NCBI GenBank assembly: GCA_964443395.1
Contig: CAYUCN010000001.1
Coordinates: 1 to 61,188 of the forward strand
Length of the DNA: 61,188 bases
Source: an uncultured Candidatus Saccharibacteria bacterium
Lineage (GTDB): Bacteria; Patescibacteriota; Saccharimonadia; Saccharimonadales; Saccharimonadaceae
Direction of reading: 5' to 3'
Part shown: piece after piece, positions 4,282 through 43,348 of the stretch
Numbering within the stretch: the stretch's first letter is position 1
Layout: each line of letters begins with the position of its first letter
Position numbers and translations under genes: made by a program
The notes under the pieces: generated by a model
The model's database searches: none
Seen by the model: only the letters and a program-made list of their open reading frames with translations
Told to the model about the DNA's origin: nothing

Positions 4282-4484
4282 GCTTATCTATTTTTTAACT
4301 CTTTTTGTTGTATTTTTTACAACATATTTTCTTCGGTCCACCCCTAGACTTTAATGATCTTCACTATAAACGCCTAGACTTTTTTCCTCTTTTATTAGAT
4401 AATTGGCACATTGATATTCCGAATTTTAATTTCGGAAATCTGCACCTTATAATCTATGGTTAGTTATCAGAAAGGAAGTTATCC

Positions 4485-14528: not shown

Positions 14529-14720
14529 CCGCCCCAAAGCCACCCGTTTAGCATCCACCGCATACCGCAGATGCACTACAAAACCTTCCCCGCCAAGCCG
14601 CCCCACCGGGCGGCTTTTTACTTCTTTGAACTCGAAATCTTCACTAGAGTAGCGCACAAATTTTCATCAGAGCATCTTCAGGCCAAACCTATATTATGCA
14701 ATTACAGTAGATAAATACGT

Positions 14721-14862
14721 AAGTCTCTAGCGCTTTCGCTATAAGTGAGCGTTTCCCGGCTGGAGCGGGTCTGATTCACGACATAGTACAAAGTACAAGT
14801 TTGGGCTAAAACGTGATGAAGAGAGCTCCACCGGTGAACGTTAGTGAAAGCGTTAGAGACTT
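14721..14862. repeat. MITE/REP-like foldback element, family A copy 1
   Basis: AAGTCTCTAGCGCTTTCGCTA...TAGTGAAAGCGTTAGAGACTT; same ends as 27853-28123. Confidence 0.75.
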
Positions 14863-14887
14863 CCTTACGAGGTAGCACCAACGCCAA

Positions 14888-18755: not shown

Positions 18756-19634
18756 ATGCCCGGTCCCGGAGGATTCGGTGGCCCTGGTGGTTTTGGTGGT
18801 TTTGGTGGATTCGGTGGCCCTGGTGGTCATGGCGGAATGGGTCCGCCACCACCACCTCCACCCCCGCCTTGCGCGCCAATGTGCGCTGGTGGCCATCCCG
18901 GCCACAGCAGTGGCGGCATTGGTCAACACGATGACCCGCCATCTCCGCCCCCTAGCAACACTCGCCCTCACAAACCCCAGTTTTTCAGGAGCGAACAGCA
19001 GTACGCCATTGCCATTATCATCGGTCTGCTCGCCGCTCTGCAAGCTAGCACCATGGTCGTCTCCAACATCCTTGGCAGTAAACTCTGCCAAATCGGCCCT
19101 ATTCGGTTTGACAGCGGTATCGTGCTGTTCCCATTGACCTATATCGTCACCGATCTCACCGTCGAAGTCTTTGACGATCGCATCGCCAATCGCATCGACC
19201 TCTTTACCTGTTTCTGCAACATTATTGCACTAATCAGCTTCAAAATTGCCGATCTCATCCCCGCAGCCGCCGGTTCTGGCAGCGTACAATTTGGCGTCGC
19301 GCTCGGGTTATCTACCCGCGTGATGCTGGCCAGTACCATCGCCTATTACGTTAGTCATCGGATAGACGTCAAAGTCCATTGGCAACTCTTCGGCCTCACC
19401 AAAATCCACCAGCACAAATTCCGCAGTTTCGTAAGCTCAATCATCTCCAGAATTCCTGACTTAGCCCTTTTTAATCTCATTGCCTTCTGGGGGCGCCTCG
19501 GACTGTTGCAACTGCTCTGGAACTTCATCAGCAGCTACATTCTGGCAACTTTCGTCGAGCTCATCTTGATTATCCCCGCCGGCTGGCTAGTTAATAGTCT
19601 CCGCCGCAATCTCCAAAACACACCCAATACCTAA
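18756..19634 (+). CDS. yhhQ: Queuosine precursor transporter (YhhQ/VUT family) with Gly/Pro-rich N-extension
   Basis: VSNILGSK, GIVLFPLTYIVTDLTVEVF, RVMLASTIAY, RSFVSSIISRIPD..LF..IAF; adjacent to tgt. Confidence 0.85.
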   Translation: MPGPGGFGGPGGFGGFGGFGGPGGHGGMGPPPPPPPPPCAPMCAGGHPGHSSGGIGQHDDPPSPPPSNTRPHKPQFFRSEQQYAIAIIIGLLAALQASTMVVSNILGSKLCQIGPIRFDSGIVLFPLTYIVTDLTVEVFDDRIANRIDLFTCFCNIIALISFKIADLIPAAAGSGSVQFGVALGLSTRVMLASTIAYYVSHRIDVKVHWQLFGLTKIHQHKFRSFVSSIISRIPDLALFNLIAFWGRLGLLQLLWNFISSYILATFVELILIIPAGWLVNSLRRNLQNTPNT

Positions 19635-19709
19635 CCACCTCTCGCTTCAGCCTCCCCGCTCTGGGGAGGTTTTTCTATTACATACCCCAAAATGTGTTAT
19701 AATATACGC

Positions 19710-20987
19710 ATGGAATTTATCGTTGAGAAAACTTTACCCAACGGTCTTGGCCGCGCCGGTATCATTAAAACCGCCCACGGCGAAATCAAAACCCCAGCTT
19801 TTATGGCCGTCGGGACTCATGGCTATGTACGTTTTCTCTCTAGCGCCGATTTGCATGACATTGGTGCTCAAGCTATGCTCTCTAACGGCTACCATCTTCG
19901 CCGTCAATCTCCAGCTATCGCCCAAGCTGGCGGTCTCGCCCAATGGCAACCCATCGACCAGCCCAGCAGTCAGGCGCCCGAACAAGATAGCTCACCTCAT
20001 CGTCCAGACGGCCTCTCACCCGCCCCCTGGTTTGGCCCCACTCTTACCGACAGTGGCGGCTTTCAAGTCATGTCACTTGGCTCCGGCCTCGGCAAAGTCG
20101 TTTCTATGGAGAAAGAGCGCCACATTACCAATACCGCTCACACCGAGCGCCTTGCTCACATCACCGAAGACGGCGTCCACTTTACCGACCCTTTTGACGG
20201 CCAACCAGATTTTATCAGTCCTGAAGAATCTATGCAAATCCAATGTCGCATTGGTGCTGACATCCATATGGCTTATGACGAGCTTACCTCTCTCGCCGAC
20301 ACCTACGAATATAACATCGAAGCCATGGCACGTACCGAACGCTGGGCTGAACGCAGCCTGCGCGAACACCTCAAACACCGCGACGACCTCGGTTACCGCC
20401 AAAATCTTTACGGTGTTTTACAAGGTGGTCGCTGGGAAGATCTCCGCCGCCGCACTGCCCGCAATCTTGCTAAAATGTCCGTCGATGGCGTAGAATTCGA
20501 TGGCTTCGGTCTGGGCGGCGCCTTTCTTAAAGAAGACCTTGGCGACATCCTCCGCTGGTGCAATGAAGAGCTACCCTTAGAGAAGCCTCGGCATCTCCTT
20601 GGTCTCTCTCATCCCGACGACATCTTCATTGGTACCGAAATGGGCGCCGACACCTTTGACTGTGTTGCCCCTATGCGCGAAGCTCGTCATGGCAAAATTT
20701 ACACCCTAGACGGCAATCTCAACCTCCGCCAATTCCGCGACGTTAGCCGTTCACTCGACCCTGGCTGCGATTGTCCTACCTGTCGCGCCGGCTGGACCCT
20801 TGGCAGCCTCCGCGCGCTTTGGCGTTCTGGCGACTCTGACAAAAAATCTAAATTCTACCGCCTCGCCTCTGCCCATAACCTTCGCTTTATTATCCGCCTC
20901 ACCGAGAACATCCGCGCCTCTATCCTACAAGGCGACTTTAATCAGTACAAAATCGCTTTCCTTACACGCTATTATGCTCAAAAATGA
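19710..20987 (+). CDS. tgt: tRNA-guanine transglycosylase
   Basis: HGEIKTPAFMAVGT, TDSGGFQ, GVLQGG, KPRHLLG, GADTFDCV, zinc site CDCPTC..H. Confidence 0.95.
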   Translation: MEFIVEKTLPNGLGRAGIIKTAHGEIKTPAFMAVGTHGYVRFLSSADLHDIGAQAMLSNGYHLRRQSPAIAQAGGLAQWQPIDQPSSQAPEQDSSPHRPDGLSPAPWFGPTLTDSGGFQVMSLGSGLGKVVSMEKERHITNTAHTERLAHITEDGVHFTDPFDGQPDFISPEESMQIQCRIGADIHMAYDELTSLADTYEYNIEAMARTERWAERSLREHLKHRDDLGYRQNLYGVLQGGRWEDLRRRTARNLAKMSVDGVEFDGFGLGGAFLKEDLGDILRWCNEELPLEKPRHLLGLSHPDDIFIGTEMGADTFDCVAPMREARHGKIYTLDGNLNLRQFRDVSRSLDPGCDCPTCRAGWTLGSLRALWRSGDSDKKSKFYRLASAHNLRFIIRLTENIRASILQGDFNQYKIAFLTRYYAQK

Positions 20988-23023: not shown

Positions 23024-24667
23024 TTATCTCATCACACATCGTATTGGCAACCCCAGTGTTGCTGCATTAGAAAAACTCTGATTCGTCTGAGCAGCACCTG
23101 ACGTAATAAGCATATATGCTTTCTTCTTTCCATTAGGCTGTTCAGAAGCAGCAGCCGTAGATGAATAATATATAGCATTCTGAGATGCAAATGCTATCTG
23201 AGTGCTCACCTGTCCGGCAGTAACGAAATAATATGGAGCCACACGTACATCAACGTCATCGATTCTAGGGTCTGCTGCAAAAAGCCCATTAAAAGACCCG
23301 GCAGTTGTCACATCTTTGCCAGATAAGGGAAGGTTCCAGCCGCTCGGACATATACTGCCGCTAGCATTACTCTCCGCGGTGAGATCCTTGCCAGTACCAT
23401 TAGTAGCTGCAATAAAATTATAATATTTTCCTACAGCATAATGCTCGTAAGCTTGCGCGCTTAAGGCCGGAGCAAATGCAGAATACATTCTGCATGGTAT
23501 ATAATCTGATGTCATATCGCCATAATACCCTGGTGTCTTTGTACAACTCATTTTACCGTCGTTGCTAATGTACGAAGTCGCAGCAATAAAATCTTTATCA
23601 TATGTCTTAATCCAAGAAGAATCAATTTTGAAGGCTGGTATATCAGAAGTATTGACTTCCGACGCTAATTTCCATCCAAAACCAGTGCACGCAGAAAGGC
23701 TATTTGGATATTGACTCATGATACAGTTCTGCGATATGGTTGGATTAGCTAATACGTACTTTCCAGGATCGTAATAATAAGCATCTGAATCGGAACTTAT
23801 CCAATTGGATAGCGGATCAGTAATCTTAGTTCCTCCGCCATCGTAATCTAAATTTTGTGTCATCCAACATAGTCCGTCAGATTGTCTAGCAACCCAATAC
23901 CATTTATTATCACGAGTATCTTTCAGTCGGCCCTCGGTACCGATTGGAATAGTATTGCATTGAGCTTTTGTAAATCCCTGCATATTAGTATAGTTACCAA
24001 ACTGATTCCAATTTGCCACTTCCTCCACCCCCGCCACGGCAGAAAGCAGTATTCCAGTAGTATAATGTCCTGGTGTCGCATTGGCTCCAAACTTAGTAGC
24101 AAAGTTAATGGTAAAGTTTCTGGTTTCTCCTGTGGACGTAGAAGAATATGCTGGGTTTAGTGCTGTAGTAGCACTATCTGGTACTGGATTATACTTTAAG
24201 TTCTCTGGTGTTGCTCCTGTACTATCTACCGCATATCCCCAAGTATTATCCGTGAACTCACTTGTTGGTGTATCTACCTTTACAAAGTCTACTGTAAGGC
24301 TTCCATTTGTGAGTTTATTCGTACTTCCAGGAGCCGTTTGTACATATACATTATATCCATCTACATTAGCTGTAGTAACTGTAAACCCACTACTTATATA
24401 GTTTACTTGTCCTGTCTTAGAATTATTCGTTAATGTATTCGCATCACCATCCATCCTTAGCGATACACTCATTCCGTCTGCTTGTGTACTAATCCCTTCT
24501 TCCGCATAAGCACTTCCATTACTACCTATACCACCATTCATACTATTGCTAAGCCCAGTAGGATTAATACATATCCCGCCTAACAAAAGCAAAGCAAGCA
24601 TGCAACCAATTGGAATACTATGAACAATTTTTCTTCGTTTAAAGTTATTATTCTTTTTATAGCGCAT
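23024..24667 (-). CDS. Surface protein: signal peptide, WxL-like domain, FISUMP (Fib_succ_major) domain
   Basis: DTRDNKWY..CWMTQNL, GKYYNF, SICPSGWNLP, C-terminal IRCV; AAGGAGG RBS. Confidence 0.85.
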   Translation of the reverse strand: MRYKKNNNFKRRKIVHSIPIGCMLALLLLGGICINPTGLSNSMNGGIGSNGSAYAEEGISTQADGMSVSLRMDGDANTLTNNSKTGQVNYISSGFTVTTANVDGYNVYVQTAPGSTNKLTNGSLTVDFVKVDTPTSEFTDNTWGYAVDSTGATPENLKYNPVPDSATTALNPAYSSTSTGETRNFTINFATKFGANATPGHYTTGILLSAVAGVEEVANWNQFGNYTNMQGFTKAQCNTIPIGTEGRLKDTRDNKWYWVARQSDGLCWMTQNLDYDGGGTKITDPLSNWISSDSDAYYYDPGKYVLANPTISQNCIMSQYPNSLSACTGFGWKLASEVNTSDIPAFKIDSSWIKTYDKDFIAATSYISNDGKMSCTKTPGYYGDMTSDYIPCRMYSAFAPALSAQAYEHYAVGKYYNFIAATNGTGKDLTAESNASGSICPSGWNLPLSGKDVTTAGSFNGLFAADPRIDDVDVRVAPYYFVTAGQVSTQIAFASQNAIYYSSTAAASEQPNGKKKAYMLITSGAAQTNQSFSNAATLGLPIRCVMR

Positions 24668-24970
24668 ACTTGCCCTCCTTGGTTTAGTTTTACATAAACC
24701 CTTAAAGTAGTGCTGCAGAATATTTAGAGCATCAAAAACTATGCTTGAGTTTTATTCTTCTATAGAAGATATATTATAGAATAGATCTTTATATCATAAG
24801 CCTCAATGAGTTATATACATAGATATATGACATAAAGGAATACTATGATATGTCATATATACTCATTTTACTTTGCTAAAAGACTTCTTCTGAACAGTAT
24901 CTCCTATAATCTTTCCTCAAGATTTATTGCTTCTTAGTTTTTGTATATAAGTAATAGAGTTTACCCTAAA

Positions 24971-25116
24971 TACAAAAACAGCACCACAAGGGTGTTAAAG
25001 CAATCACTGAGAGACCTGTCGGTTCACCAATAATTAGCGCCTTATGGTGCTGTCCTCACGGTGAAAACGACGCAGATTTCCTAACAAAAATCCGACAAAC
25101 AATGATTGCTTTAACA
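24971..25116 (-). ncRNA. Structured leader RNA upstream of FISUMP gene, copy 1
   Basis: Starts just after TAGGCG-17-TATAAT (25150-25122); P1 TGTTAAAGCAATCATTG/CAGTGATTGCTTTAACA; loop ACAGCACCATAAGG complementary to tail CCTTGTGGTGCTGT; U-tract. Confidence 0.7.
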
Positions 25117-25232
25117 ATTCCATTATACCAAACTTTCGCGCCTGCGCCTAGTCTTGTAAATAACAATAATCATTATATAACATTCTTCATTCCCCGCCCT
25201 CTCCTCCTACTTAAGTATAGGAAAAGGTATAA

Positions 25233-26009
25233 TTATCTAGCGACACAGCGGACGGAGCTGCCGTCGTAGCGATAGAGGCTGCCGGACGGGGTAAAGTTAC
25301 TAATATTGAAGCTCAAGAGGTATGCGTTGTAGGAATCGATGGCTGTAGAGGACCAATAGTACCCGCTGGAGTTAGCGTAGTTCAGAGAGCTATTATTGAC
25401 ATATCCGCCAAAGAAGAAACTAAGTGGAGTTTGAGTTAATTTGCCACCGTTACTACCTATACTATAAGTTGTAGTTAGTTTACCAAAAGGCTTTTGGTTA
25501 GCATCAGTATTGTTGTTAGTAGGTAATTGCCAGCCCTTGGGGCAAATGCTAGATGGGGCGTTTCCACTAGTAATCTTAGCATCGCCCGTACCAGCCGTAG
25601 CTGCAAACCAAGAATAATGTGCGCCATAGGTAGTATTGTTATTATAGTACACCCTAGACTGATAAGTGTCATTGTTAGAAAAGTACTGTGGGGTATCATT
25701 AGCTGGAGTTTTATCTAAAGCTACGGATGCAGGTAGATAGTAATTGCCTGTAACGTCAGAATCATCCGGAGTAAGCAGCTTGCTGACAATTCTTAGGTTT
25801 TGGGTCATCCAACAGTTACCATCAGCCAACTTGGCAATAGTATAAGTACTGCCATCCCTAGAATCAGTCAATGTCTTAGTAGGTACAGTAGTAGCACTAG
25901 CAGCTGGTGTAGCTTGGCTATTGCAAGCTGACGGGTTCATATCTTGCATATAGACTAGTTGATCCCAAGTTTTAGCTGTCTCCTGCGCTCCCGCGGCGAT
26001 ACCCATCAC
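25233..26009 (-). pseudogene. 5'-truncated FISUMP gene (no signal peptide) with DGR-like variable C-terminus
   Basis: Close paralog of the C-half of 32544-34109 (KTWD.LVYMQDMNPSAC, DGNCWMT, SICPKGWQLP, SVRCVAR); no RBS or secretion signal. Confidence 0.7.
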
Positions 26010-26097
26010 AACAAGATAAGAAGTCCTTACATGCCGCAGCTTCCAATTTTATATTTTTAGACTATCCAAGACCACCAGTTTCGTGATACAATAGAAA

Positions 26098-26248
26098 TGT
26101 TTAAACAGTTTATCGAATACAACAAGCCTCAGACTTTTATTATAGTCTACAGCTTTCACCACGGAAACAGCACCATAAGGTGGCAATTCGGTGAATCTGT
26201 ATGGTTTGTCGATAAGCTGTTTAAACACCCTTGTGGTGCTGTTTTTGT
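26098..26248 (+). ncRNA. Structured leader RNA upstream of FISUMP gene, copy 2
   Basis: TGATACAAT just upstream; P1 TGTTTAAACAGTTTATCGA/TCGATAAGCTGTTTAAACA; TTCACC/GGTGAA stem; same loop-tail complementarity. Confidence 0.7.
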
Positions 26249-26358
26249 ATTTAGAAATAATTATAAAAATGGCAAAACGCGCTATAAACGCATAAGCTAT
26301 GCCATCTTTTTGATACCCACAATCTCACCACACCCAAACCATAAACAGGAGGAGATTA

Positions 26359-27795
26359 ATGCTAAAATTACAAAATACCAAACATAAACTAGGAATGACG
26401 ATATGTTCTATCGGAATAATCAATCTTTCCTTTTGGAGTTTTCTTAACCTTAGTTATGCTCCAAAATACGCCCATGCCACCGAAGACACCAAAACCATCG
26501 ACGACATCAAATATATGCAAGAAATGTCTCCGCACGTCTGTGAATCTATGAAAGAATCCACTGCTACAGTAGATAATCAAAAACGACTAATCGACCATCG
26601 CGATGGTAAAAGCTATTGGGTAGCAAAGTTTAAGGATGGTAGATGCTGGATGACACAAAATCTCGATTTAGGCCTCTGGAAAGGAGATAATGAAACCGGT
26701 AGTGGCAGTATACTAACTAGTGCAGATTCCGATATAATTAGTGACTGGACTTCAACTACTGGAGCTTCGACATTATGGACGGGGAGCCTCGATAATCCTA
26801 ATATAATAAAATATTATGATCCAGGAAATAAATACTGCACCAATAATAGAACGGACAAATGCGATTTAATTACCAGTAATAATAACGGCCATGACAGTCA
26901 AGGTAATTATTATAGTTGGGGAGCAGCGACAGTCGGTACGACTTCTAATATGAATAACGATGGTGATATTACGTCTTCTAGTATTTGCCCTAAGGGTTGG
27001 AAATTACCGCTAAGTGGAGCACGCTATAGTAACGGCATCTATTCTAACGATACCGTAAGTGGATCATTTAAATACTTAATGACTCATCAAGGTATTACGA
27101 CGGATGATGCAGCAGCTAGCTCCGCCTTGCTTTCTGCGCCATTATATTTCATTTATAGCGGATACGTTACCGACAATCTTCTAGGCGGCGTTGGTTCTGG
27201 CGGCCATTATTGGTCATCTACAGTTACCAACACTATTAGCATATATAGCTTAGTATTCATAGGTAGCTCCGCCAATCCATCCAATAACAGTATTCGTTTT
27301 AGCGGACATTCTATCCGCTGCGTGAATAGCGACACTTTTTATGATTGGCAAGCCCCAGAAGAAGATAACGCTAATATAAATGTCACTATACCTACAATAT
27401 TAACCGTAGAAGCCTCAAGTAATGTAGATCCTAATATAACTCCTAATAATATTACTGATGGTACTATTACCGCTACAGTAAGCAGCAATACAGAATACAA
27501 TATATTCTTAAGCGCCGACCAACCTAATCTAATTAATAGTAAGAACCCAGAAGGACCTAATATCCCCGCCAACATTAATGTATCTCCAAATACTAATGCT
27601 TGGGCTATCAAGGATGACAGTACAGGCAATACCTATAAAGCCATCAAAACTGCTACCGATACTTTCTATAATACTAAAACTACAGACACTCTAGGCAATG
27701 ATATCTATACCTATGGCCTCGGCATCTCCATTGCACCCTCGTTGCCTGCTGGTACTTATAGTACTACCGTCACCATCACCGCCTCTACGAAATGA
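26359..27795 (+). CDS. Surface protein: signal peptide, FISUMP domain, C-terminal WxL-like domain
   Basis: DHRDGKSY..CWMTQNL, GNYYSW, SICPKGWKLP, YWSST, SIRCV; ends PAGTYSTTVTITA. Confidence 0.85.
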   Translation: MLKLQNTKHKLGMTICSIGIINLSFWSFLNLSYAPKYAHATEDTKTIDDIKYMQEMSPHVCESMKESTATVDNQKRLIDHRDGKSYWVAKFKDGRCWMTQNLDLGLWKGDNETGSGSILTSADSDIISDWTSTTGASTLWTGSLDNPNIIKYYDPGNKYCTNNRTDKCDLITSNNNGHDSQGNYYSWGAATVGTTSNMNNDGDITSSSICPKGWKLPLSGARYSNGIYSNDTVSGSFKYLMTHQGITTDDAAASSALLSAPLYFIYSGYVTDNLLGGVGSGGHYWSSTVTNTISIYSLVFIGSSANPSNNSIRFSGHSIRCVNSDTFYDWQAPEEDNANINVTIPTILTVEASSNVDPNITPNNITDGTITATVSSNTEYNIFLSADQPNLINSKNPEGPNIPANINVSPNTNAWAIKDDSTGNTYKAIKTATDTFYNTKTTDTLGNDIYTYGLGISIAPSLPAGTYSTTVTITASTK

Positions 27796-27852
27796 TAACT
27801 AAATAAACTACGTACGTAGTCTTTCTGGAGCATCCGAAGATTGCAAAGCCAT

Positions 27853-28123
27853 AAGTCTCTAGCACTTTCACTATAAGTGAGCGTTTTCAAAATAAACGGA
27901 TATAAGCTAGACCTATGCTATACAATTTTAGCGAGCATAGACCACCTTCTTTGCGAGTAATGTATATTCCTGACGCAGCCGACAGGTTCGCCCGTAGGGC
28001 GGTTCTGCCGGACTGCCAGAGTATGACATTACGAACAAAGATGGCATGAGATAAAATTCGTATAGCATAGGTCTAGCTTTTTGTAACGTTGCCGGTGAAC
28101 ATCAGCGAAAGTGCTAGAGATTT
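27853..28123. repeat. MITE/REP-like foldback element, family A copy 2, with nested hairpin 27904-28079
   Basis: Same ends as 14721-14862; inner perfect 20-bp IR AAGCTAGACCTATGCTATAC. Confidence 0.75.
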
Positions 28124-28677
28124 TATTTATAGTACACCCTACCCTCCACTCTAATATCAGCATACGCCGGCTCCAAATTATGTTCTTTCAGATAGCGCAA
28201 CACCCTATCCGCATCTTCCGCCGTCACCGCCGTATCTCTATCCGTATTCACTTTTAGGTAAGTATTATATCCTTCCAAATCCACATATAATTCCCTGCTC
28301 ATCCCCGTCGGTAGAATCACCTGCGTAATCGTATAGCCTAAATCTTGCATATCTTGTTCTAGCTGCGCAATGTAACTTTTTGTCCGGCTAGAAATCTGCC
28401 CGCGGTTGTCTTCATCCACAATAGTCGCCCGCATAATATATTCTGCCGTCTGAGTTTTATTTTCGCTTTCGTATTGCTCGTACACATTTTTACCAGTCGT
28501 ATACGCCAGCAACGCCAAAACCGCCAACACCAACGCTGCCATTACTACCGACGTCTTATGCTTACGCCTCTGCCGCTCATGTTCTTGCAGCCGTTCCGAG
28601 TCCGACTCTGCCCGTTCGCGCTCTGCTACTATCGTCTGACCGCGCTTTAGCCGCTTCATTTTATTTTGCCCACGCAT
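28123..28677 (-). CDS. ftsQ: FtsQ-like cell division protein
   Basis: Basic N-terminus, single TM, C-terminal YADIRVEGRVYYK; follows murG. Confidence 0.6.
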   Translation of the reverse strand: MRGQNKMKRLKRGQTIVAERERAESDSERLQEHERQRRKHKTSVVMAALVLAVLALLAYTTGKNVYEQYESENKTQTAEYIMRATIVDEDNRGQISSRTKSYIAQLEQDMQDLGYTITQVILPTGMSRELYVDLEGYNTYLKVNTDRDTAVTAEDADRVLRYLKEHNLEPAYADIRVEGRVYYK

Positions 28678-28686
28678 TTTTACTTT

Positions 28687-30018
28687 TTATTTCCTTTTCG
28701 TCTTCGCTCTCTTCACTTGCTTCTTCTGTATCCTCTTTGCATTCTTATCTTCCACTTTCTTCAATTTCGCTTGCTCCTTTTCCGCTACTCTCTGCTCGCT
28801 CACGTCTATAAGGATTTGCGCCAACCTCTCCGCCGCATCCGGCGTCGCCTGCGCATGTAGCTTCTCTGCCAAAGATCTCCGCACTTTTGGCGACCGTACT
28901 AAACGTCGTATCTCATTTAGTAAGATTTGCGGCTTCCTGCGCATCTTCTCATCCGGTACCATTACTACTGCCTCTAAATCTTTCAATTTCTCCGCATTCT
29001 TCAGCTGATGCGCCCCCGGCAGCCGCTCAAACGGCACTAATATCACCGCCTTCTTTAGCGCTGCCAACTCCGCAATCGTCGTCGCCCCCGCCCGGCTCAC
29101 TACTACATCCGCCGCCCCCATCAGCTCATGCATCGCCGAGTTAAACTCCCACATCCTAAAGTTTGACTGCAGCTTTGCCTTATCCCACTCCTCATACCGC
29201 TTTAAATCCACCACTTCTTCATAATATTTTCGCCCCGCCACTAATCCCACGCTCGTATATTTCAATAACTCTGGCAAAATTTCATGCACCGCCTGGTCAA
29301 TATTCTGCGACCCTTGGCTACCCCCCGTTATTACCACTAGCGGACGTTCTGAATCATAGCCAAAACCCTTCTTCAAATTTCTCTGCTGCGCTTCCGTCAC
29401 TACTTTAAACTCCGGCGCCACTGGCACACCTACGTTTACCACACAGCCGCCTTCTACCTTTAATCCATCCCAGCCGCTCGCAATCACCGCCGCATGCTTC
29501 ATTAACACTCTGTTTGCTAAACCTGGCACCATATCCGACTCATGTACTACATATGGTATCTTAAACCAACTCGCCACTAAGCCCACCGGCAGCCCTACAA
29601 ATCCCCCTTTCAAAAAGATCACATTAGGACGCTTACTCGGCAACAATAACCTCCAAAAACTCTGCATAATCCCCCCTACAAACCCAAAGAATCCAACAAT
29701 ATTTCCAAAAATCAAATCCTTAAACACTATTCCTAGATGTTTCAGCCAATCTTTCCATGTCCACCCCGCATACCGACGGAACTTCCCTGACCAGATCTTC
29801 CTTACCCGTATATATGGAATCCGTCGGTTTCCTTCTTGTGCATGCGACCCCCAACGTACTCCGATTTCTGTTGTAATTTTTACAACATTTTTATAATACT
29901 TCCTATCCGTCCAAAATTCCACCTTCGTTCCGGGCAGTTTTTTCAATAATTCTCTCACCACCGCCACTGCCGGCGTAATATGACCACCGCTGCCACCACC
30001 TACTACTAAAACCTTCAT
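28687..30018 (-). CDS. murG: Lipid II N-acetylglucosaminyltransferase MurG
   Basis: GGGSGGHITP, KGGFV, HESD..PGLAN, GGSQGS, SRAGA, HQLKNA. Confidence 0.95.
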   Translation of the reverse strand: MKVLVVGGGSGGHITPAVAVVRELLKKLPGTKVEFWTDRKYYKNVVKITTEIGVRWGSHAQEGNRRIPYIRVRKIWSGKFRRYAGWTWKDWLKHLGIVFKDLIFGNIVGFFGFVGGIMQSFWRLLLPSKRPNVIFLKGGFVGLPVGLVASWFKIPYVVHESDMVPGLANRVLMKHAAVIASGWDGLKVEGGCVVNVGVPVAPEFKVVTEAQQRNLKKGFGYDSERPLVVITGGSQGSQNIDQAVHEILPELLKYTSVGLVAGRKYYEEVVDLKRYEEWDKAKLQSNFRMWEFNSAMHELMGAADVVVSRAGATTIAELAALKKAVILVPFERLPGAHQLKNAEKLKDLEAVVMVPDEKMRRKPQILLNEIRRLVRSPKVRRSLAEKLHAQATPDAAERLAQILIDVSEQRVAEKEQAKLKKVEDKNAKRIQKKQVKRAKTKRK

Positions 30019-31199
30019 TCCATTCTCCTTCTCAGTATATTAACATTCGCACTCGCTAATTTCTCCTTGCGTGGCTCTCTGCTCGTATAGCAAGATAGTT
30101 GTAAAGCAATCCCCAACGCCGCCGCCGTGAACAACATACTTGTACCGCCATAGCTAAGTAACGGCAAAGTGATCCCTGTCAACGGCACCAATCCCGTCAT
30201 CGCCGCAATATTCACAATTACATGTGCCGCCGCCCACGCAAACACCCCCACCACCACTAGCGACTCTTCATCATTTTCTAGATAGTTTGCCGTCCGGAGA
30301 AGCCTCAATAATAACGCTGTAAAGCATCCTATTACCAATAGCAATCCAAAGAATCCAAACGTCTCCCCCATAATCGCAAATACCGAGTCGTTAATCGATT
30401 CCGGCAAATAACCCGTCGCCTGCACACTGTTTCCAATCCCCACCCCAAACATACCACCTGTGCCTATCGCAATCATCGCGTTCTCGATATGATACGCATC
30501 ACTCGAATCTTCCGAGCTAAACGTCATAATTCTTTCCAACCTATGCGGAGACACCACAATCGACGCCACTCCCGCCGCAAGTGCCACCGCCACTACTATC
30601 AAGAAATACTGCATTTTTACCCCGCTCATATATAACATCGCCAAAATAATCGCTGCAATCGCAATCCCCGTACCTAAATCCTTCTGCAGAACTATCACCA
30701 ACCCCAAACTCAGCACGCTCACCACCGCAAATGGTATCCAAAAATCACTACTATTTAATTTCCCTTCTGCCTTACGTTCTGCCATCAGTTGCGCTAAGTA
30801 CAATACTAGACCTAACTTCAGTATCTCCGCCGGCTGCAGACTAAATCCCTGCACTACTATCCATCTACATGCTCCTAGCTCACACTTCGCAAAGCGACTT
30901 CCTACTGCCGCCAATATCGCTAACAATACACACAGTGCTATCCCGCCAAACATCACTAGCTTTGCATACTTACGCATATATTTATACGGTATCTTAAACG
31001 CCAATACTAATACCACCAACGACATAATCACATTCCGTAATTGCTGGATAAAAAACGTATTCTCGCTCAAATTCGTCCCATACACCGAGTTCATCACATT
31101 CGCCCGCATCGGCCCAATCGCATAAATCACAATCAGCCCTACACACAGCAGGACTAGCGTCAAAGCTCCAATTACCCGATCACTCTTATGTCTGCGCAT
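30015..31199 (-). CDS. ftsW: SEDS family peptidoglycan polymerase FtsW
   Basis: GACRW, QPAEILK, QKDLGT, YLPESINDSVF, PLTGITLPLLSYGGTS; start 31199 after GGAGGAG. Confidence 0.93.
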   Translation of the reverse strand: MRRHKSDRVIGALTLVLLCVGLIVIYAIGPMRANVMNSVYGTNLSENTFFIQQLRNVIMSLVVLVLAFKIPYKYMRKYAKLVMFGGIALCVLLAILAAVGSRFAKCELGACRWIVVQGFSLQPAEILKLGLVLYLAQLMAERKAEGKLNSSDFWIPFAVVSVLSLGLVIVLQKDLGTGIAIAAIILAMLYMSGVKMQYFLIVVAVALAAGVASIVVSPHRLERIMTFSSEDSSDAYHIENAMIAIGTGGMFGVGIGNSVQATGYLPESINDSVFAIMGETFGFFGLLLVIGCFTALLLRLLRTANYLENDEESLVVVGVFAWAAAHVIVNIAAMTGLVPLTGITLPLLSYGGTSMLFTAAALGIALQLSCYTSREPRKEKLASANVNILRRRME

Positions 31200-32307
31200 G
31201 GTCTCCTCCAGAATCTTCAATTTCTTGATTCGAGTTCTCGCCTCGTACAAAATCATCTACTTGCTGCATCCTCTCTTGGCTCACAATCCCACCTTGTATC
31301 GCCAAGAACACCCCCACAATCGCAAATACTCCCGCAATCACCCAAAACCTCATCACAATCTTCGCTTCCCCCCAACCTTGCGCTTCTAGGTGATGATGTA
31401 TCGGCGCCGAGATAAACAATTTCTTATGAAACACCTTCTTCCAAAAAATCTGTATCAGCGACGACCCCGCCTCCACCACAAACAAAATTCCAATAATCGG
31501 CAACAAGAAAAACGCATTCGTCATCATCGCCACCACACCTAACCCCGCACCCAGCGCAAACGACCCCGTATCCCCCATCATAAACCGTGCCGGCGGCACA
31601 TTAAACCAAATATACGAAAGTAACCATCCCGCCACCGTCAAACAAAACCCCGTTAGCATCCATTGCCCCTGAAACAGCGCAATAATCCCATACGCTCCAT
31701 ACGCAATCATCGCCAATCCCCCCGCCAGCCCATCTAATCCATCCGAAATATTTACCGCATTGCTTGTCGCTACTACCGCAAATGCAAAAATCAGCATCAT
31801 CCCCACCGCACCTACTTGGAAGTCTCCAAAAAATGGAATCTCGATACTCGTCCAGCCCAATTTACAAGCAAACCACCACCCCAGCCAAATCCCAATCGAA
31901 GTAATCATCGCAAATTTCACCGGCGCTCTTAAGCCTGCCGCACCCTTACCGCTACCAAAAATATTAATAATATCATCAATAAAGCCTACAATACTGCCTC
32001 CCAAAAATCCCGCCAACGGCAACCAAGTCTGCTCACGGTTTAGATTACAAATACAAGTCACCACCGTTACCGTCACCACACCAATCACCCCCGCCATCGT
32101 CGGGAAGTGCCGCGCAAACTTCTTAGCATGCAGCTTCGTCATCACAGGCAAAGCTTCGCCCGTTAAAGTCTCTTTCTTCTGTTTTTTCCAAAACTTATAT
32201 TTATAAGCAAAATAAGTATAGACTGGCGTCAAAAAAGTCGCCAAACAAAACGCCGACAGCGCCAAAAGCAAACCGTAAAATGTTTCGTTGTTCAACGTAT
32301 CGGTCAT
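31186..32307 (-). CDS. mraY: Phospho-N-acetylmuramoyl-pentapeptide transferase
   Basis: PTMAG, GFIDD, NAVNISDGLDGLA, MGDTGS, APIHHHLE. Confidence 0.96.
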   Translation of the reverse strand: MTDTLNNETFYGLLLALSAFCLATFLTPVYTYFAYKYKFWKKQKKETLTGEALPVMTKLHAKKFARHFPTMAGVIGVVTVTVVTCICNLNREQTWLPLAGFLGGSIVGFIDDIINIFGSGKGAAGLRAPVKFAMITSIGIWLGWWFACKLGWTSIEIPFFGDFQVGAVGMMLIFAFAVVATSNAVNISDGLDGLAGGLAMIAYGAYGIIALFQGQWMLTGFCLTVAGWLLSYIWFNVPPARFMMGDTGSFALGAGLGVVAMMTNAFFLLPIIGILFVVEAGSSLIQIFWKKVFHKKLFISAPIHHHLEAQGWGEAKIVMRFWVIAGVFAIVGVFLAIQGGIVSQERMQQVDDFVRGENSNQEIEDSGGDHAQT

Positions 32308-32543
32308 ACTAATCCTATTATATCACAAATCCGCCCGCTCTATGCATTTTTCGTCCCGCTCTCGTCCGCCGCACGCCCCGCACTAAGCCATGCTTACAAA
32401 AATATCGTAGCACCGCCGTCGACGTCCCCAAAATTCCACTAGCTTGTTTAATCGTATAGTATTCCCGCTCTTCCATAACCTCATTATAGCAGATTATGGC
32501 AGAGTCAGGAATATTAACTTAAGGTTTTTATATCCTTCTTATT

Positions 32544-34109
32544 TTAGCGAGCCACACAGCGGACGGAGAAGCCGAGGTAGCGATGGTAGTAGCTGGACGG
32601 GTTAACATTACCACTGGCGAAGCTCAAGTTGTATGCGTTAGTAGCCGCATTGGCCGTAGATGACCAATAGCGACCAAATACACCGACAGGGCTCATAGAG
32701 CCATCGGTGGCGAAACCTGCGTAAACAAAGCTGAGCGGAGCTGTCCTTAACTTTTCACTACCGTCTGCGTCACTACCAATATTATAAGCCGTAGTTAATC
32801 CGCTAAATGACTTTTGCTTAGCGTCAGTATTATTACTAGTAGGTAATTGCCACCCTTTAGGACAAATACTAGATGTGGCATTTTGATCTGCTGGTACTAT
32901 AGTAGTATTAGCTACATTCCCAGCATTGCCTGCATTACTGCTATTAGGAATAATATCAACATATGCTCCTTGTAGGCATGTTCCTGCTGTAGCAGCACAC
33001 CAAGAATAGTATGCTCCGTATTTCTTAGTATCAGGATTAGCTGGATTTCTGACTTGCTGGTTAGGATAAGTAGCTGTACTATTTTTGTCATTTACTTGGG
33101 TACTGCTAAACCCTCCATTTGTCGCTACAGGCAAAGTATAAGTCTTACTTATATCGGTAAATACACTCATATCCAAATCACTATCGTTAATAGTTAGCGT
33201 CGTTCCTCCTGGCAAAGCCAAGTTATCCGTCATCCAGCAATTACCATCAGCTAGTTTACTAATCGTATACTTATTACCATCTCTACTATCCGCAAGAGTC
33301 TTAGTAGGTACAGTAGTAGCACTAGCGGCTGGTGTAGTTTGACTACTACAAGCTGATGGGTTCATGTCTTGCATATACACTAGCTCATCCCAAGTTTTGA
33401 GTAGCTCTTTTGGTTCTATGGCTAATGACAATAGCACACTCGTAGTATAATGCCCACTAGGAATGTTATCGGAGAAGTTAGCAGCAAAGGATAACTTATT
33501 ACTAGTATCAATAGTATTATTAGTAGGAGTATCAGAAGCTAGTAAGCCTGTGCTGATGGTGGTACCTACACTTCCGTAAGCGGGCAAGGTGTAGTAGGTC
33601 ATGGAGTCTTCAGTAGCGTTCTCTGCTCCCCAGGCATAACCCCATGTGTTAGTAGGCATATTGCTACCTACTACACCGCCCGCTCCCGGAATGGTAGTAT
33701 TACCACCATCAAGCTTTAGTTCACTAGTACCATTACTACTAGCAGAGATTTGTAAGGTATATGATTCTACATTAGCAGCTTTGATCTTAATATTATGGCT
33801 TTTATAATTCACTCCGCTTTCTGCTAGTATCACATCCTCGATATTACCATCATCTACGATCAAAGCTGCTGATGTGTCATTAGTACTAGATGTTAACTCT
33901 GCGGCATAGGCTTTATTACTACTACCCATATTACCTAGACTATCATTCATACCATTACTAATACCATTACTAAACCCAGCAGGATTAAGTAAACTACATC
34001 CTAACAAAAGTAAGGCAAGTATGCAGCCAATGGGCATACTATGATATAGTAACTTATTACTATCTAGTATTCTTCCTTTATCCTTTTGATATTTCCTTAT
34101 TTGGCGCAT
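32544..34109 (-). CDS. Surface protein: signal peptide, WxL-like domain, FISUMP domain with DGR-like variable C-terminus
   Basis: DSRDGNKY..CWMTDNL, YGAYYSW, SICPKGWQLP, YWSST, GFSVRCVAR; inserted between ftsI and mraY. Confidence 0.87.
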   Translation of the reverse strand: MRQIRKYQKDKGRILDSNKLLYHSMPIGCILALLLLGCSLLNPAGFSNGISNGMNDSLGNMGSSNKAYAAELTSSTNDTSAALIVDDGNIEDVILAESGVNYKSHNIKIKAANVESYTLQISASSNGTSELKLDGGNTTIPGAGGVVGSNMPTNTWGYAWGAENATEDSMTYYTLPAYGSVGTTISTGLLASDTPTNNTIDTSNKLSFAANFSDNIPSGHYTTSVLLSLAIEPKELLKTWDELVYMQDMNPSACSSQTTPAASATTVPTKTLADSRDGNKYTISKLADGNCWMTDNLALPGGTTLTINDSDLDMSVFTDISKTYTLPVATNGGFSSTQVNDKNSTATYPNQQVRNPANPDTKKYGAYYSWCAATAGTCLQGAYVDIIPNSSNAGNAGNVANTTIVPADQNATSSICPKGWQLPTSNNTDAKQKSFSGLTTAYNIGSDADGSEKLRTAPLSFVYAGFATDGSMSPVGVFGRYWSSTANAATNAYNLSFASGNVNPSSYYHRYLGFSVRCVAR

Positions 34110-34592: not shown

Positions 34593-34905
34593 ACTTCATT
34601 ATATCAAACTTTCACGCGCATGCCTAGACTTGTAAATGACTAACAATCATTACGTGGTATTTTCTCCTCCTACCCCACACCTCAAGATAATTGATTACAC
34701 AAGAAAATACCATACTCATCCATGTTAAAAACATAAATATATTAAAAATTTTATGTAAGATGGAATACTTAGTCTTATTACTTCCGAAACCGACTAAAAG
34801 AACCGTATAGTAAACCAATAAGTTATTATGATTTGATATAAGATATAATTACGTGTCGGTTGAGGGAGTGAGAAGACTAAGTATTCCATTCCTCTTCGCT
34901 AAAAA

Positions 34906-38612: not shown

Positions 38613-39049
38613 GTTTGAGATCGTTCAACTAGAAATTTTCACGTTTTTGTGTTTTTTGTAGTTTTTGTTTAAAGAATGCTGATATACGATATGTATCTAC
38701 CACAATTCGACAAGCACAAAGCCCATCATACAATTATGGCCGTTGAGAGACTTATAACGTAATAATGAGTGGGTTGTTCGGCCTCAGCATAAGGGACCAA
38801 TAGAGTTAATTGGGAGGTGTTTGTTAAAGAAGTACTTATTGGATTCGGTTTCGCGTATCCCAAACGCGCGCAAAAACTCCTAGTTGGTCGATCTCAAACT
38901 CTGTTAATTTACCTTATCTTTGTTTTGATAATCTTCTCGTGGCCCCCGCACTTCACTTGTATTTCTACATTTATTTTACGTTTTATTTTTTGAGTAAAAT
39001 TGTTTATTTTTATGTAGTTTTTACTTGTTTGTGTGGGTTTTCGTCCACT
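38613..39049 (-). ncRNA. Candidate long ncRNA or leader at the usual mraZ position
   Basis: TTGCGT-17-TATACT promoter (39084-39056), no long ORF on this strand, long-range pairing 38613-38639 with 38872-38899. Confidence 0.4.
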
Positions 39050-39819: not shown

Positions 39820-41127
39820 ATGGATACAGATTCCGAAAAACCAGCAACAACATCAGCCGATACCGCCGTAACGTCTGATACACTAGAGACAGCAGCCGAT
39901 GCAGCTCTTAATACGCTTGGTCAGATTGCTAATTCCGCTAATAGCGCCAGTGACAACCAAGATATCACTAATGAATCTTTCGATACGTCAGATAATACCG
40001 CTAACGAATCTTCTCCCAAATCTTCCGAAGCAGACTCTACAAATTCTAGCCTACCCGACGACGTCGCTAACATGCAAATCAACGACCACGCCGCCGCCGT
40101 CGCCGGCAACGATGACGACACCGAGCCCGAACCAACTTACTATCGCTCTGATAATCCGGCCTTCGATGTCTTCCATTGGGCTAACGAAATCGACGAAGTT
40201 AAAAATAATGTCTCCGTAGAATTATTCTTATTTAACAAAAATTATACACCTTTCCGCGTCCGTTATTCCGATAAGCTTACTGCCAGCGTCAAAGCCATGT
40301 TTATGCAAGAAGCCACTGGCTATATCATCAAAGAAGCCGACAAAGGTCTCGAATGTCGTGAATATGAAAAATCAGATGGTGAAGACCGCGTCATCTACCG
40401 CACTAAACTCAGCAACGTCGGTCGCGCCGAGACTTTAATTCATCTTATCGAACATGAATATCGCAACATCGACTCCTGGAACGATCATGTCGACGAATTT
40501 AAAAAAGTTAAAGGCATCATTGCTAAATTTACTTACCCTGGCGAAGACGGCGAGACTAAAGTCTTCTACATTGCCAAAGCTCTCTCTCCCTCCTCCGCTC
40601 TCAAAGGCGGCACCAGCTGGGAACTAAATGGTGAGAGCTTCGAACCTTTCTCTGCCGAAGTCGCCCTTAAAATGCCCGACGATAATCAAGTTGCCATCAT
40701 CGACGGCACCGTTGTCATCTTTAATCAAAGCAAATTCGAAAACTTATTTCAGTACGACTACAAATCTCAAGTTATTGCCGACGAAAAAGCCAAAGAACTA
40801 ACAAATAAATATAAGCTCTCCTTCGCCGAAGGCCTCACGCTTAATACGCTTTTGCAGGATAAAAAGCCTCTTGTCAAAAAACTCCAATCCCTCGATATCG
40901 CCGCCGAAATGCCCCAAGACAAACTCATCGACTACGCCGACGAAATGCAACTCGAACTCATGACCGACGACGACGGCTCCATCATCATCATGGACGATAA
41001 AGATCTTACTATGTTCGTCAATCTCTTAGCCGAAGATTACTTCATCTCGCCCGTCAACGGTCGCCGCTACGAAATCAAATCTAAAAAACTCCTCTCCGAA
41101 CCCGAAGGAGAGCCGCCACGAGGATAG
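39820..41127 (+). CDS. DUF4868/KwaB-like protein with acidic N-terminal extension
   Basis: VIFNQSKFENLFQY and FVNLLAEDYFISPVNGRRYE resemble DUF4868 (Kiwa KwaB); GGAGG RBS. Confidence 0.6.
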   Translation: MDTDSEKPATTSADTAVTSDTLETAADAALNTLGQIANSANSASDNQDITNESFDTSDNTANESSPKSSEADSTNSSLPDDVANMQINDHAAAVAGNDDDTEPEPTYYRSDNPAFDVFHWANEIDEVKNNVSVELFLFNKNYTPFRVRYSDKLTASVKAMFMQEATGYIIKEADKGLECREYEKSDGEDRVIYRTKLSNVGRAETLIHLIEHEYRNIDSWNDHVDEFKKVKGIIAKFTYPGEDGETKVFYIAKALSPSSALKGGTSWELNGESFEPFSAEVALKMPDDNQVAIIDGTVVIFNQSKFENLFQYDYKSQVIADEKAKELTNKYKLSFAEGLTLNTLLQDKKPLVKKLQSLDIAAEMPQDKLIDYADEMQLELMTDDDGSIIIMDDKDLTMFVNLLAEDYFISPVNGRRYEIKSKKLLSEPEGEPPRG

Positions 41128-41165: not shown

Positions 41166-41290
41166 TGGAAATAGTGCGAATCTCTTTGCGAAAGACTAAA
41201 AGAGCGAGCACACGCGCAGCGAGGAGTGAGCGCCCCGTGTGGACGGGCGCGCGAACGGGTCTTGAGCAAAGATGGTTCGCACTGTTTCCA
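41166..41290. repeat. REP-like hairpin repeat, family B copy 1
   Basis: 99-bp core 96/99 identical to 43237-43335, with its own closing stem. Confidence 0.9.
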
Positions 41291-43223: not shown

Positions 43224-43348
43224 GGGCGGTGGTGTAAATCTCTTTGCGAAAGACTAAAAGAGCGAGCACACGCGCAGCGAGGAATGAGCGCCCCGTGTGG
43301 ACGGGCGCGCGAGCGGGTCTTGAGCGAAGATGGTTTACACCACCGCCC
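43224..43348. repeat. REP-like hairpin repeat, family B copy 2
   Basis: Direct repeat of 41166-41290 with a different outer stem. Confidence 0.9.

What the first reader, a model, noticed from the sequence alone, without database searches (positions are those of the whole stretch)
25243..32639. DGR-type hypermutation signature in two FISUMP C-termini, with no TR or RT in the window
Seen: 25243-25328 and 32554-32639 align without gaps over 86 nt (AAC GCA TAC nnC TTG AGC TTC ... CCG TCC nnC nnC nnC nAT CGC TAC nnC GGC nnC TCC GTC CGC TGT GT). Of 20 differences, 18 are at codon positions 1-2 of C/T-ending codons and only one is synonymous. The shared upstream part of the same genes instead differs largely by synonymous third-position changes. 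Known: DGRs mutagenise adenines of AAY codons in C-terminal C-type-lectin-fold variable regions, and Fib_succ_major domains are among the targets. Inference: both genes are remote targets of one DGR elsewhere in the genome, diversifying host-binding adhesins. The other two FISUMP genes have drifted at the invariant codons.
Basis: partly seen in the sequence, partly recalled or inferred. Interest (0 to 1): 0.85.

Follow-up and report, generated by a model that had tools for sequence, protein, structure and literature searches.

The report
Hypermutated adhesin with silent cassette archive
A tiny Saccharibacteria genome carries one mutation-generating retroelement and 23 scattered, headless spare copies of the binding domain of the surface protein it mutates, which are likely swapped into a single expressed gene, so two known ways of varying a surface protein appear to be stacked on one gene.

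Summary
The predicted template exists: contig C45 holds one reverse transcriptase and one template repeat (TR), and 16 of the 20 differences lie opposite TR adenines. At least 25 loci carry the signature, more than any published count I saw.

The 'two remote target genes' reading is only partly right. Window 25233-25997 is one of 23 dispersed, headless FISUMP cassettes. They start with one 17-nt motif and 22 end with one non-coding element. Both ends copy one gene: a signal-peptide, pilin-like head after infB (C24), whose 3' flank is inferred to lie 1.15 kb from the TR (C45). The assembly breaks at the first variable base on each side. Two other species repeat this layout with their own motifs; a fourth has the locus assembled. 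Cassettes are open, mosaic and under purifying selection (dN/dS 0.10-0.28), yet none has a ribosome-site-backed start.

Best reading: the DGR mutates one expression site, and a silent archive exchanges whole lectin domains with it by gene conversion. Swapping is inferred; reads did not show it. The window's two repeats look like older, frozen copies.

The parts
25233..25997 (-). Headless FISUMP (C-type-lectin-fold) cassette, 254 codons plus stop, from the 5' junction motif to the stop; no signal peptide or head domain
25981..25997 (-). 17-nt 5' junction motif (reads AAGAQ), identical to the end of the head gene on C24; 25 copies within one mismatch in the genome
25239..25400 (-). Variable repeat 1; fits the C45 TR in its 3' 90 nt (12 of 28 A changed, 3 of 62 non-A), degenerate further 5'
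25239..25257 (-). G+C-rich invariant end shared with the TR (IMH-type end; role inferred)
25197..25232 (-). Non-coding 3' element after the stop, shared by the cassettes and by the right end of the RT/TR contig C45; 28 copies within 3 mismatches
32544..34109 (-). Full-length family gene, 521 aa: hydrophobic signal-like N-terminus, pilin-like Ig head, FISUMP/CLec domain; has neither cassette end motif
32550..32711 (-). Variable repeat 2; fits the TR in its 3' 90 nt (12 of 28 A, 4 of 62 non-A), degenerate further 5'
23024..24667 (-). Full-length family gene, 547 aa, with a related head junction (AVAGVEE) and no VR signature
26359..27795 (+). Family gene, 478 aa, in the other domain order (signal-like N-terminus, FISUMP, C-terminal domain of about 150 aa); no VR signature
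24966..25066 (-). About 100-nt element upstream of the 23024 gene, inverted copy of 26151-26260; brackets the cassette, role unexplained
26151..26260 (+). Inverted partner of 24966-25066, upstream of the 26359 gene

Best explanation
This genome has one diversity-generating retroelement and 23 dispersed headless copies of a lectin-fold domain whose two ends match one gene, the likely expression site, with which they likely exchange whole domains by gene conversion while the retroelement likely rewrites the domain's tip. Shown: one RT and TR on C45; adenine-specific variable repeats at 25 or more loci; 23 cassettes with a shared 5' motif, 22 with the shared 3' element; a unique head gene after infB on C24 that ends in the motif; the C45 end that begins inside the 3' element. 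Inferred from synteny with G126, G212 and G290: C24 and C45 flank one gene, the DGR's ancestral neighbouring target. Inferred: copies of that gene's domain-plus-tail are written out to new sites with ragged ends (enzyme unknown), recombine segmentally with each other and with the family's full-length genes, and return to the expression site by homologous recombination between the 5' motif and the VR/3' element (RecA is present). Predicted: the product is a secreted pilin-like head carrying a swappable, hypermutable lectin tip, probably for binding a host cell surface. The window's cassette and the 32544 gene are older products of this traffic.
For: TR and RT; 11 best VRs have 214 changes at 506 TR-adenine sites against 19 at 1276 other sites. 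Cassettes: 23 with the 5' motif, 22 open to the stop; 14 of 23 have no in-frame ATG/GTG/TTG upstream and 0 of 23 a Shine-Dalgarno-backed start, while the C24 head has a promoter-like site and AGAGGA before its ATG. Their bodies are diverse (46-69% aa identity to the window cassette among 10 aligned) but their ends share 0-10 nt with the C24 head and 2-12 nt with the C45 flank beyond the core motifs; G212 shows the same (0-12 and 4-29 nt). C24 stops at the last invariant base of the motif and C45 at the one polymorphic base of the 3' element, sharing only 27 and 30 nt elsewhere, whereas 69 of 128 contig ends are 54-55-nt repeat overlaps; G212 C26 stops one base after its motif. infB lies upstream of the head in G000, G212, G290 and G126; the RT contigs of G212 and G290 end in the 3' element or a VR; in G126 the locus is assembled and its VR has 13 A and 0 non-A differences in 174 nt. 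Motif copies: 27 in G212, 20 in G290, each species with its own motif. dN/dS outside the VR is 0.10-0.28 in 9 cassette-cassette pairs, and 60-nt blocks switch closest partner along a cassette. In G212 and G290 a second full-length gene with a different head carries both cassette ends in frame.
Against: No read or contig shows two different domains joined to the C24 head: in 2 of 2 runs one contig ran 5 nt past the break and stopped, which a 30-nt repeat could also cause. Low dN/dS could be inherited from full-length ancestors. Mosaic blocks could in part be chimeric short-read assembly of repeats. 34 of 128 contig ends share 12-53 nt elsewhere, so an end without a 55-nt overlap is not rare in itself; the argument rests on the exact position. 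In G290 the 3' flanks diverge within 0-7 nt of the anchor, so the downstream homology is weaker there. No dedicated recombinase was identified, no empty insertion site was found, and the end motifs fold no better than shuffles. The window cassette has an in-frame GTG/ATG 4 and 3 codons upstream.
Confidence: 0.6

Rival explanations
1. One-way overflow: copies of the DGR's neighbouring target are written out to new sites as a by-product (for example of DGR homing or repair) and never return, so the cassettes are a fossil record of past variants.
For: Ragged ends that copy the expression-site flanks show outward flow directly. Cassette VRs range from 1 to 41 non-A mismatches, as ageing copies would. 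One cassette is truncated and C42 has a short relic. The window cassette's VR showed no other letters in 4 runs.
Against: 22 of 23 remain open; dN/dS 0.10-0.28 at dS 0.2-0.7 among start-less copies; very different bodies carry identical ends, which needs those bodies to have passed through or recombined with the site; breaks at the first variable base in two species; the layout recurs in three species with different motifs.
Confidence: 0.2
2. One reading: the loci are independent genes, each expressed (the short ones from an internal or nearby start) and each mutated in trans by the one DGR.
For: 8 of the 25 VR-positive loci are not cassettes (full-length, internal-VR or 5'-open genes), among them C35 with 19 A and 1 non-A difference. 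Remote targets are known (Wu 2018, PMC5758913; Nimkulrat 2016, PMC4891356). Cassettes keep the IMH-type end, so trans mutagenesis is possible. The 11 best VRs differ from each other at 16-31 adenine sites.
Against: No shared start, no signal peptide and no ribosome site in 23 cassettes, while the frame from the junction to the first Met is kept. It does not explain why the ends equal the flanks of one gene. It may hold for the full-length VR genes alongside the best explanation.
Confidence: 0.12
3. The cassettes are a non-autonomous mobile element or site-specific recombination cassette (integron- or shufflon-like) moved by a recombinase that recognises the two end motifs.
For: Conserved motifs at both ends, dispersed single insertions, some in repeated intergenic sequence; tyrosine recombinases are present.
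Against: Ends are ragged, with no fixed boundary, terminal inverted repeat or visible target duplication; the motifs differ between species and track the expression gene's own sequence; relatives without seen cassettes have the same 1-2 recombinases.
Confidence: 0.06
4. Assembly or binning artefact: several strains merged into one bin.
For: The genome is a 64-contig assembly and 64 of 128 contig ends lie in or resemble family genes.
Against: Contamination is 0.18%; cassettes sit inside long contigs among housekeeping genes; independent assemblies of two other species show the same layout.
Confidence: 0.02

Closest known systems
DGRs with CLec2 / category 'd' targets (DUF1566, DUF823, Fib_succ_major) and CPR-type avd-RT-TR order, Wu et al. 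2018 (PMC5758913; passages and section 18 read)
   Same: RT plus adenine-rich TR, VR at the end of a Fib_succ_major domain, changes at codon positions 1-2, G+C-rich invariant end; internal VRs also occur.
   Different: Wu reports at most 8 tandem and 7 non-adjacent targets and says CPR DGRs tend to have one target. Here one TR matches at least 25 loci in 1.03 Mb, most of them headless cassettes. The passages I read mention no such archive.
Treponema denticola DGR with remote TvpA-like targets (PMC4891356; passages read)
   Same: One RT/TR, several dispersed VR genes, a few truncated; TvpA is a top fold match (Z 7.5).
   Different: 2-7 targets, full genes; at most one truncated copy per isolate, with no shared junction described.
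Thiohalocapsa PB-PSB1 (PMC10907252; section 5 and passages read) and Trichodesmium (PMC8867640; passages read)
   Same: Many targets per genome (15 from nine loci; 18 loci with TR/VR homology from two RTs), some mutated in trans.
   Different: Several DGRs in large genomes, complete genes, proposed conflict or signalling roles; no expression site plus archive in what I read.
Silent-cassette gene conversion: Borrelia hermsii vlp/vsp (UHS and DHS), Anaplasma msp2/p44 functional pseudogenes, Borrelia vlsE (review PMC4534519; passages read)
   Same: One expression site; dispersed silent copies with conserved 5' and 3' homology, including a non-coding downstream element; mosaics among archived alleles.
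   Different: No retroelement is involved there. Here the expression site is a DGR target, the swapped unit is a whole lectin domain, the organism is a Saccharibacterium, and switching has not been observed.
Chaperone-usher / archaic pilin domains (FimA, CfaB/CfaE, Csu) and Bacteroides DGR-diversified pilus tips (bioRxiv 10.1101/2024.11.15.621889; passages read)
   Same: The head folds like these pilin domains; a pilin domain plus a lectin domain is a tip-adhesin layout.
   Different: Identity is 10-15%, Z about 7; no usher or chaperone was looked for; filament formation is untested.

Membership tests
Diversity-generating retroelement | Reverse transcriptase next to a TR | tested here: met
   C45:3750-4964, RVT_1 37.3 bits over cut-off 29.6, YVDD motif, TR about 230 nt downstream. 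Placement in the DGR clade by a tree was not done.
Diversity-generating retroelement | TR-VR pairs differing almost only at TR adenines | tested here: met
   214 of 506 adenine sites against 19 of 1276 others in the 11 best VRs; 8 VRs with 0 of 62 non-A differences in the 3' 90 nt.
Diversity-generating retroelement | TR adenines at codon positions 1-2, no stop codon reachable | tested here: met
   45 of 46 adenines at positions 1-2; no stop possible; about 10^26.6 protein variants.
Diversity-generating retroelement | IMH / IMH* ends: shared G+C-rich end, then divergence | tested here: met
   TR and VRs share the G+C-rich end and diverge just after it; function not tested.
Diversity-generating retroelement | Accessory Avd protein | tested here: inconclusive
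   A 308-aa gene overlaps the RT start and has homologues at relatives' RT loci; no Pfam hit for it; 1 of 14 homologues hits bAvd at E 0.024, below cut-off; no PDB match.
Diversity-generating retroelement | Hairpin downstream of IMH (not universal: 34% in Wu 2018) | tested here: not met
   The 3' element folds no better than shuffles (z -0.13 and -0.60).
Diversity-generating retroelement | VR in a C-type-lectin-fold domain | tested here: met
   Model pLDDT 87.3; residues 186-451 match PvdO Z 8.1, TvpA Z 7.5, TaqVP Z 5.3, Mtd Z 5.2. Middling Z values, but consistent.
Diversity-generating retroelement | Ongoing adenine-site variation in a population | tested here: inconclusive
Silent-cassette gene conversion system (vlp/vsp, msp2, vls, pilS type) | One complete expression gene with promoter and start | tested here: inconclusive
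   Head with promoter-like site, ribosome site and signal-like N-terminus on C24; the join to C45 is inferred from synteny; G212 and G290 each have a further full-length gene with both motifs.
Silent-cassette gene conversion system (vlp/vsp, msp2, vls, pilS type) | Many silent, partial copies with conserved 5' and 3' homology to the expression site | tested here: met
   23 cassettes in G000; 27 and 20 motif copies in G212 and G290. Silence is judged from sequence only.
Silent-cassette gene conversion system (vlp/vsp, msp2, vls, pilS type) | Donor sequence observed replacing the expressed sequence, non-reciprocally | tested here: inconclusive
   Indirect only: break positions and mosaics; one search did not resolve it.
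Silent-cassette gene conversion system (vlp/vsp, msp2, vls, pilS type) | Dependence on host recombination proteins | not testable with these tools
   RecA is present in 8 of 8 genomes searched; RuvAB and RecFOR were not searched.
Integron / shufflon-type site-specific cassettes | Fixed recombination sites with precise boundaries and a linked recombinase | tested here: not met
   Ragged boundaries; the tyrosine recombinase hits are not at the RT or head loci.

The most novel reading that the evidence does not exclude
A two-tier adaptive repertoire in a 1-Mb bacterium: a DGR hypermutates one expressed pilin-lectin gene, its variants are written out as silent whole-domain cassettes across the chromosome, and they are recalled by gene conversion. 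This gives the retroelement a heritable memory of past binding variants and lets it work on many different lectin scaffolds.
Probability: 0.45. Interest if true: 0.92.

Novelty: new variant of a known kind. Interest (0 to 1): 0.8.

Why it matters
DGRs overwrite their target and are thought to keep no record of earlier variants; cassette-conversion systems keep an archive but have no targeted mutator. Here both seem to act on one gene, in an uncultured Saccharibacteria lineage where family ORFs fill about 9% of the genome (stop-to-stop lengths). It gives a candidate for how these small bacteria track host surfaces, and a single PCR-sized locus (infB-side head to TR-side flank) where switching and mutation can be read directly. 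It also warns that DGR surveys on short contigs will miss the true target, because the assembly breaks there, and may count archive copies as remote targets.

Tried and rejected
Family search for RVT_1 in the own genome returned 0; this was a miss of the first-look filter, since hmmscan and the protein search found the RT. First structure model (10 sequences) was unusable, pLDDT 42. PDB sequence searches for the cassette and accessory alignments gave nothing meaningful. Rfam found only tRNAs in 5 sources. Hairpins at either cassette end are not significant. No empty insertion site was found by pairing 5' and 3' flanks. The promoter scan around the window cassette gave 8 sites against 5.4 expected. 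Laying contigs on the C24 end gave one contig per run running 5 nt past the break: inconclusive. The G000 3' element was not found in 200 other genus genomes. A degenerate 5' pattern over 324 genomes found only G212, G093 and three single hits, and as written could not match the G000 or G290 motifs, so it is no prevalence estimate. Metagenome scan for the 5' motif: 10 of 10 hits were high-G+C chance matches. The head protein found no locus in genome contigs and 2 longer proteins. G023: none of the 14 VR loci fetched showed a shared headless junction, but several were cut by contig or locus ends. Short frames in G102, G126, G144, G220, G036 and others were contig-end fragments or carried extra domains. 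The script used the wrong frame and was rerun. The array translation was out of frame and is not used. Paul et al. 2017 (PMC5436926) is not held and was not seen.
Full report
Observation. The two stretches align without gaps over 86 nt with 20 differences, 18 at codon positions 1-2 and one synonymous codon; the shared upstream block differs mostly at third positions. Both lie at the end of Fib_succ_major domains. The window is contig C1 of a 1.03-Mb, 64-contig genome, 92% complete, 0.18% contamination. Records with the closest RTs are titled uncultured Candidatus Saccharibacteria; no call names the genus.

The DGR. C45 carries a 308-aa gene, an RT (3750-4964; RVT_1 37.3 bits) and this TR, all on one strand. 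It is the only RT match in the genome. An ungapped scan gave 32 hits besides the TR; 11 have 1-3 non-adenine mismatches in 162 nt, with 214 changes at 506 adenine sites against 19 at 1276 other sites. My FISUMP profile hit 86 six-frame ORFs, including the TR and fragments. Of 80 with a recognisable end, 25 pass a VR test on the 3' 90 nt (at most 6 non-A mismatches, p below 0.01): 17 cassettes, 4 full-length-type genes, 3 genes with an internal VR, 1 cut at a contig end. The filter skipped one more cassette (C7), which has 23 A and 2 non-A differences. The window repeats pass, but their 5' halves have drifted (15 and 21 non-A mismatches of 116). RT relatives were found in 30 of 36 genus genomes, some weak, and FISUMP matches in 186 of 200.

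Headless cassettes. The best VRs lie mostly in short frames that begin with the same peptide, AAGAQ(E/D), with unrelated sequence upstream. There are 23 such units; each begins with one 17-nt motif and 22 run open for 756-963 nt to a stop followed by one non-coding element. Window 25233-25997 is one of them. Fourteen have no in-frame start upstream and none has a Shine-Dalgarno-like site before an upstream start or the first Met; the window cassette does have a GTG and an ATG just upstream. Bodies are diverse (46-69% identity among 10 aligned), evolve under purifying selection outside the VR (dN/dS 0.10-0.28 in 9 cassette pairs, 0.10-0.18 in 3 cassette-gene pairs), and look mosaic: C13's codons 61-80 are identical to two cassettes and its codons 141-160 to a third. 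Short-read chimeras could mimic part of that.

The expression site. Of 25 motif copies, one ends a different kind of ORF: a unique head gene after infB on C24, with promoter-like site, ribosome site and signal-like N-terminus. C24 stops at the last invariant base of the motif. C45 stops 1151 nt after the TR, inside the 3' element, at its one polymorphic base. These ends share only 27 and 30 nt with other places, whereas 69 of 128 contig ends are 54-55-nt repeat overlaps; 34 others share 12-53 nt and 25 share less. Stopping at the first variable base on both sides is what several alternative inserts would cause; this is inference. Cassette ends are ragged copies of these two flanks, sharing 0-10 nt upstream and 2-12 nt downstream of the core motifs. 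Contigs from two runs ran 5 nt past the C24 break and stopped, which decides nothing.

Other species. G212 (RT 77% identical) has 27 copies of its own motif (AAGAGEV) and, in the loci I fetched, 22 VRs with its own 3' element; G290 (74%) has 20 copies of AANPGEV and 16 such VRs. In both, a head gene after infB ends at a contig end at or shortly after the motif, and the RT contig ends in the 3' element or a VR facing the RT. G212's head contig stops one base after the motif; G290's runs 31 nt into sequence identical to two cassettes. In G126 the locus is assembled in the order accessory gene, RT, TR, then the target and infB on the other strand; its VR has 13 adenine and 0 other differences in 174 nt. 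This supports joining C24 to C45. Against a tidy picture: G212 and G290 have 5 and 7 dispersed TR copies, their VRs fit the best TR more loosely (1-22 non-A mismatches in most, some over 35), G290's 3' flanks diverge quickly, and each has a further full-length gene with both cassette ends. These genomes are kin and were chosen by similarity, so this is replication of a layout, not a prevalence estimate. G023's fetched VR loci showed no shared junction.

The protein. A model of the 32544 gene product without its first 70 residues (137 sequences; pLDDT 87.3, pTM 0.78) has two domains. Residues 3-165 match chaperone-usher and archaic pilin domains (Foldseek E 1.9e-4; CfaE Z 7.3, Csu Z 7.1). Residues 186-451 match the FGE/C-type-lectin fold (PvdO Z 8.1, TvpA 7.5, TaqVP 5.3, Mtd 5.2). 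The tool warns that Z under 8 may be only a common arrangement. The cassette junction falls at the boundary of the two domains, so a cassette is one whole lectin domain. Adhesion is a prediction.

Mechanism. Shown: RT, TR, adenine-specific repeats, cassettes, shared ends, synteny in relatives. Inferred: mutagenic homing at the infB-linked gene; outward copying of domain plus tail by an unknown enzyme; return by homologous recombination (RecA present in 8 of 8 genomes); segmental exchange among cassettes and paralogues, which would also explain old VRs in full-length genes such as 32544-34109. Whether cassettes are also mutated in place is open. I put 0.6 on two-way exchange, 0.2 on one-way copies, 0.12 on independent expressed targets.

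What is known. Wu 2018 (PMC5758913; passages and section 18) lists Fib_succ_major among CLec2 targets and gives maxima of 8 tandem and 7 non-adjacent targets. Nimkulrat 2016 (PMC4891356; passages) gives 2-7 in Treponema. Dore 2024 (PMC10907252; section 5, passages) gives 15 targets from nine loci. Paul and Eren 2022 (PMC8867640; passages) give 18 loci for two RTs. Carrasco-Villanueva 2024 (PMC11661182; passages) gives up to 6 per MAG. Roux 2021 (PMC8144416; passages) states that remote targets were not detectable. The 2024 Bacteroides preprint (passages) had no hit for 'silent' or 'remote'. The review PMC4534519 (passages) describes the UHS/DHS and msp2 archives. Eight literature searches (listings and abstract starts) showed no paper joining a DGR to a silent-cassette archive. 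The library lacks most subscription papers, Paul 2017 on CPR DGRs was not held, and I opened no supplements; Wu's Table S1 and Roux's data files may bear on the count. Author names and years are partly from recall; the ids are from the calls. Unchecked notes of this scan describe VR-only or truncated cassette stores in other Saccharibacteria; they agree but are not independent.

Verdict. A real DGR, and a variant not found in my searches: one hypermutated expression site with a dispersed archive of whole binding domains. The archive is shown; its recall is inferred and is testable with one amplicon.

Noticed in passing
G093 C26:1749-2704, C10:9761-10333, C10:26924-27527, C16:5696-6283, C37:4675-5240 and others (L157, L160, L177, L179, L183, L184): Tandem arrays of about 190-nt VR-only units, each starting with the same short word, a second kind of archive; G093 also has two strong RT matches and two head genes ending in the G212-type motif.
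   Followed up: partly
G212 (L072, L090-L093) and G290 (L126, L127, L142, L227-L230): 5 and 7 dispersed TR copies with flanking sequence, differing at AAY codons; in G212 no TR follows the RT on its contig.
   Followed up: partly
G000 C17:16989-18422, C10:12369-13871, C36:8341-9804, C16:8344-9663: Genes with the VR in the middle, followed by a domain of about 150 aa; two have only 1 non-A mismatch in the 3' 90 nt.
   Followed up: partly
window 24966-25066 and 26151-26260: About 100-nt inverted pair upstream of two divergent family genes, with partial copies on C30, C7, C4 and C13; no Rfam match; possible regulatory leader or invertible-segment ends.
   Followed up: partly
L001:2837-3763: The RT-overlapping accessory gene is 260-350 aa in this genus, with no clear Pfam or PDB match; not folded.
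   Followed up: partly
window 14713-14867, 27845-28079, 34760-34889, 38613-38899: Intergenic inverted-repeat elements; two families recur genome-wide and flank several cassettes on their 3' side.
   Followed up: partly
window 39820-41127 and 46362-48089: KwaB-like gene and KAP-family P-loop NTPase, possible defence genes.
   Followed up: no
window 41174-41282 and 43232-43340: 109-nt direct repeat (94%) bracketing a 615-aa gene with a class I aldolase domain.
   Followed up: no
window 18756-20987: Queuosine salvage pair (Vut_1 transporter with a Gly/Pro/Phe-repeat N-terminus, then tgt).
   Followed up: no
L102 (G212:C30:3819-4100): A short gene of different type, in a phage-like context by eye, with a VR-like stretch resembling the G212 TRs.
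   Followed up: no
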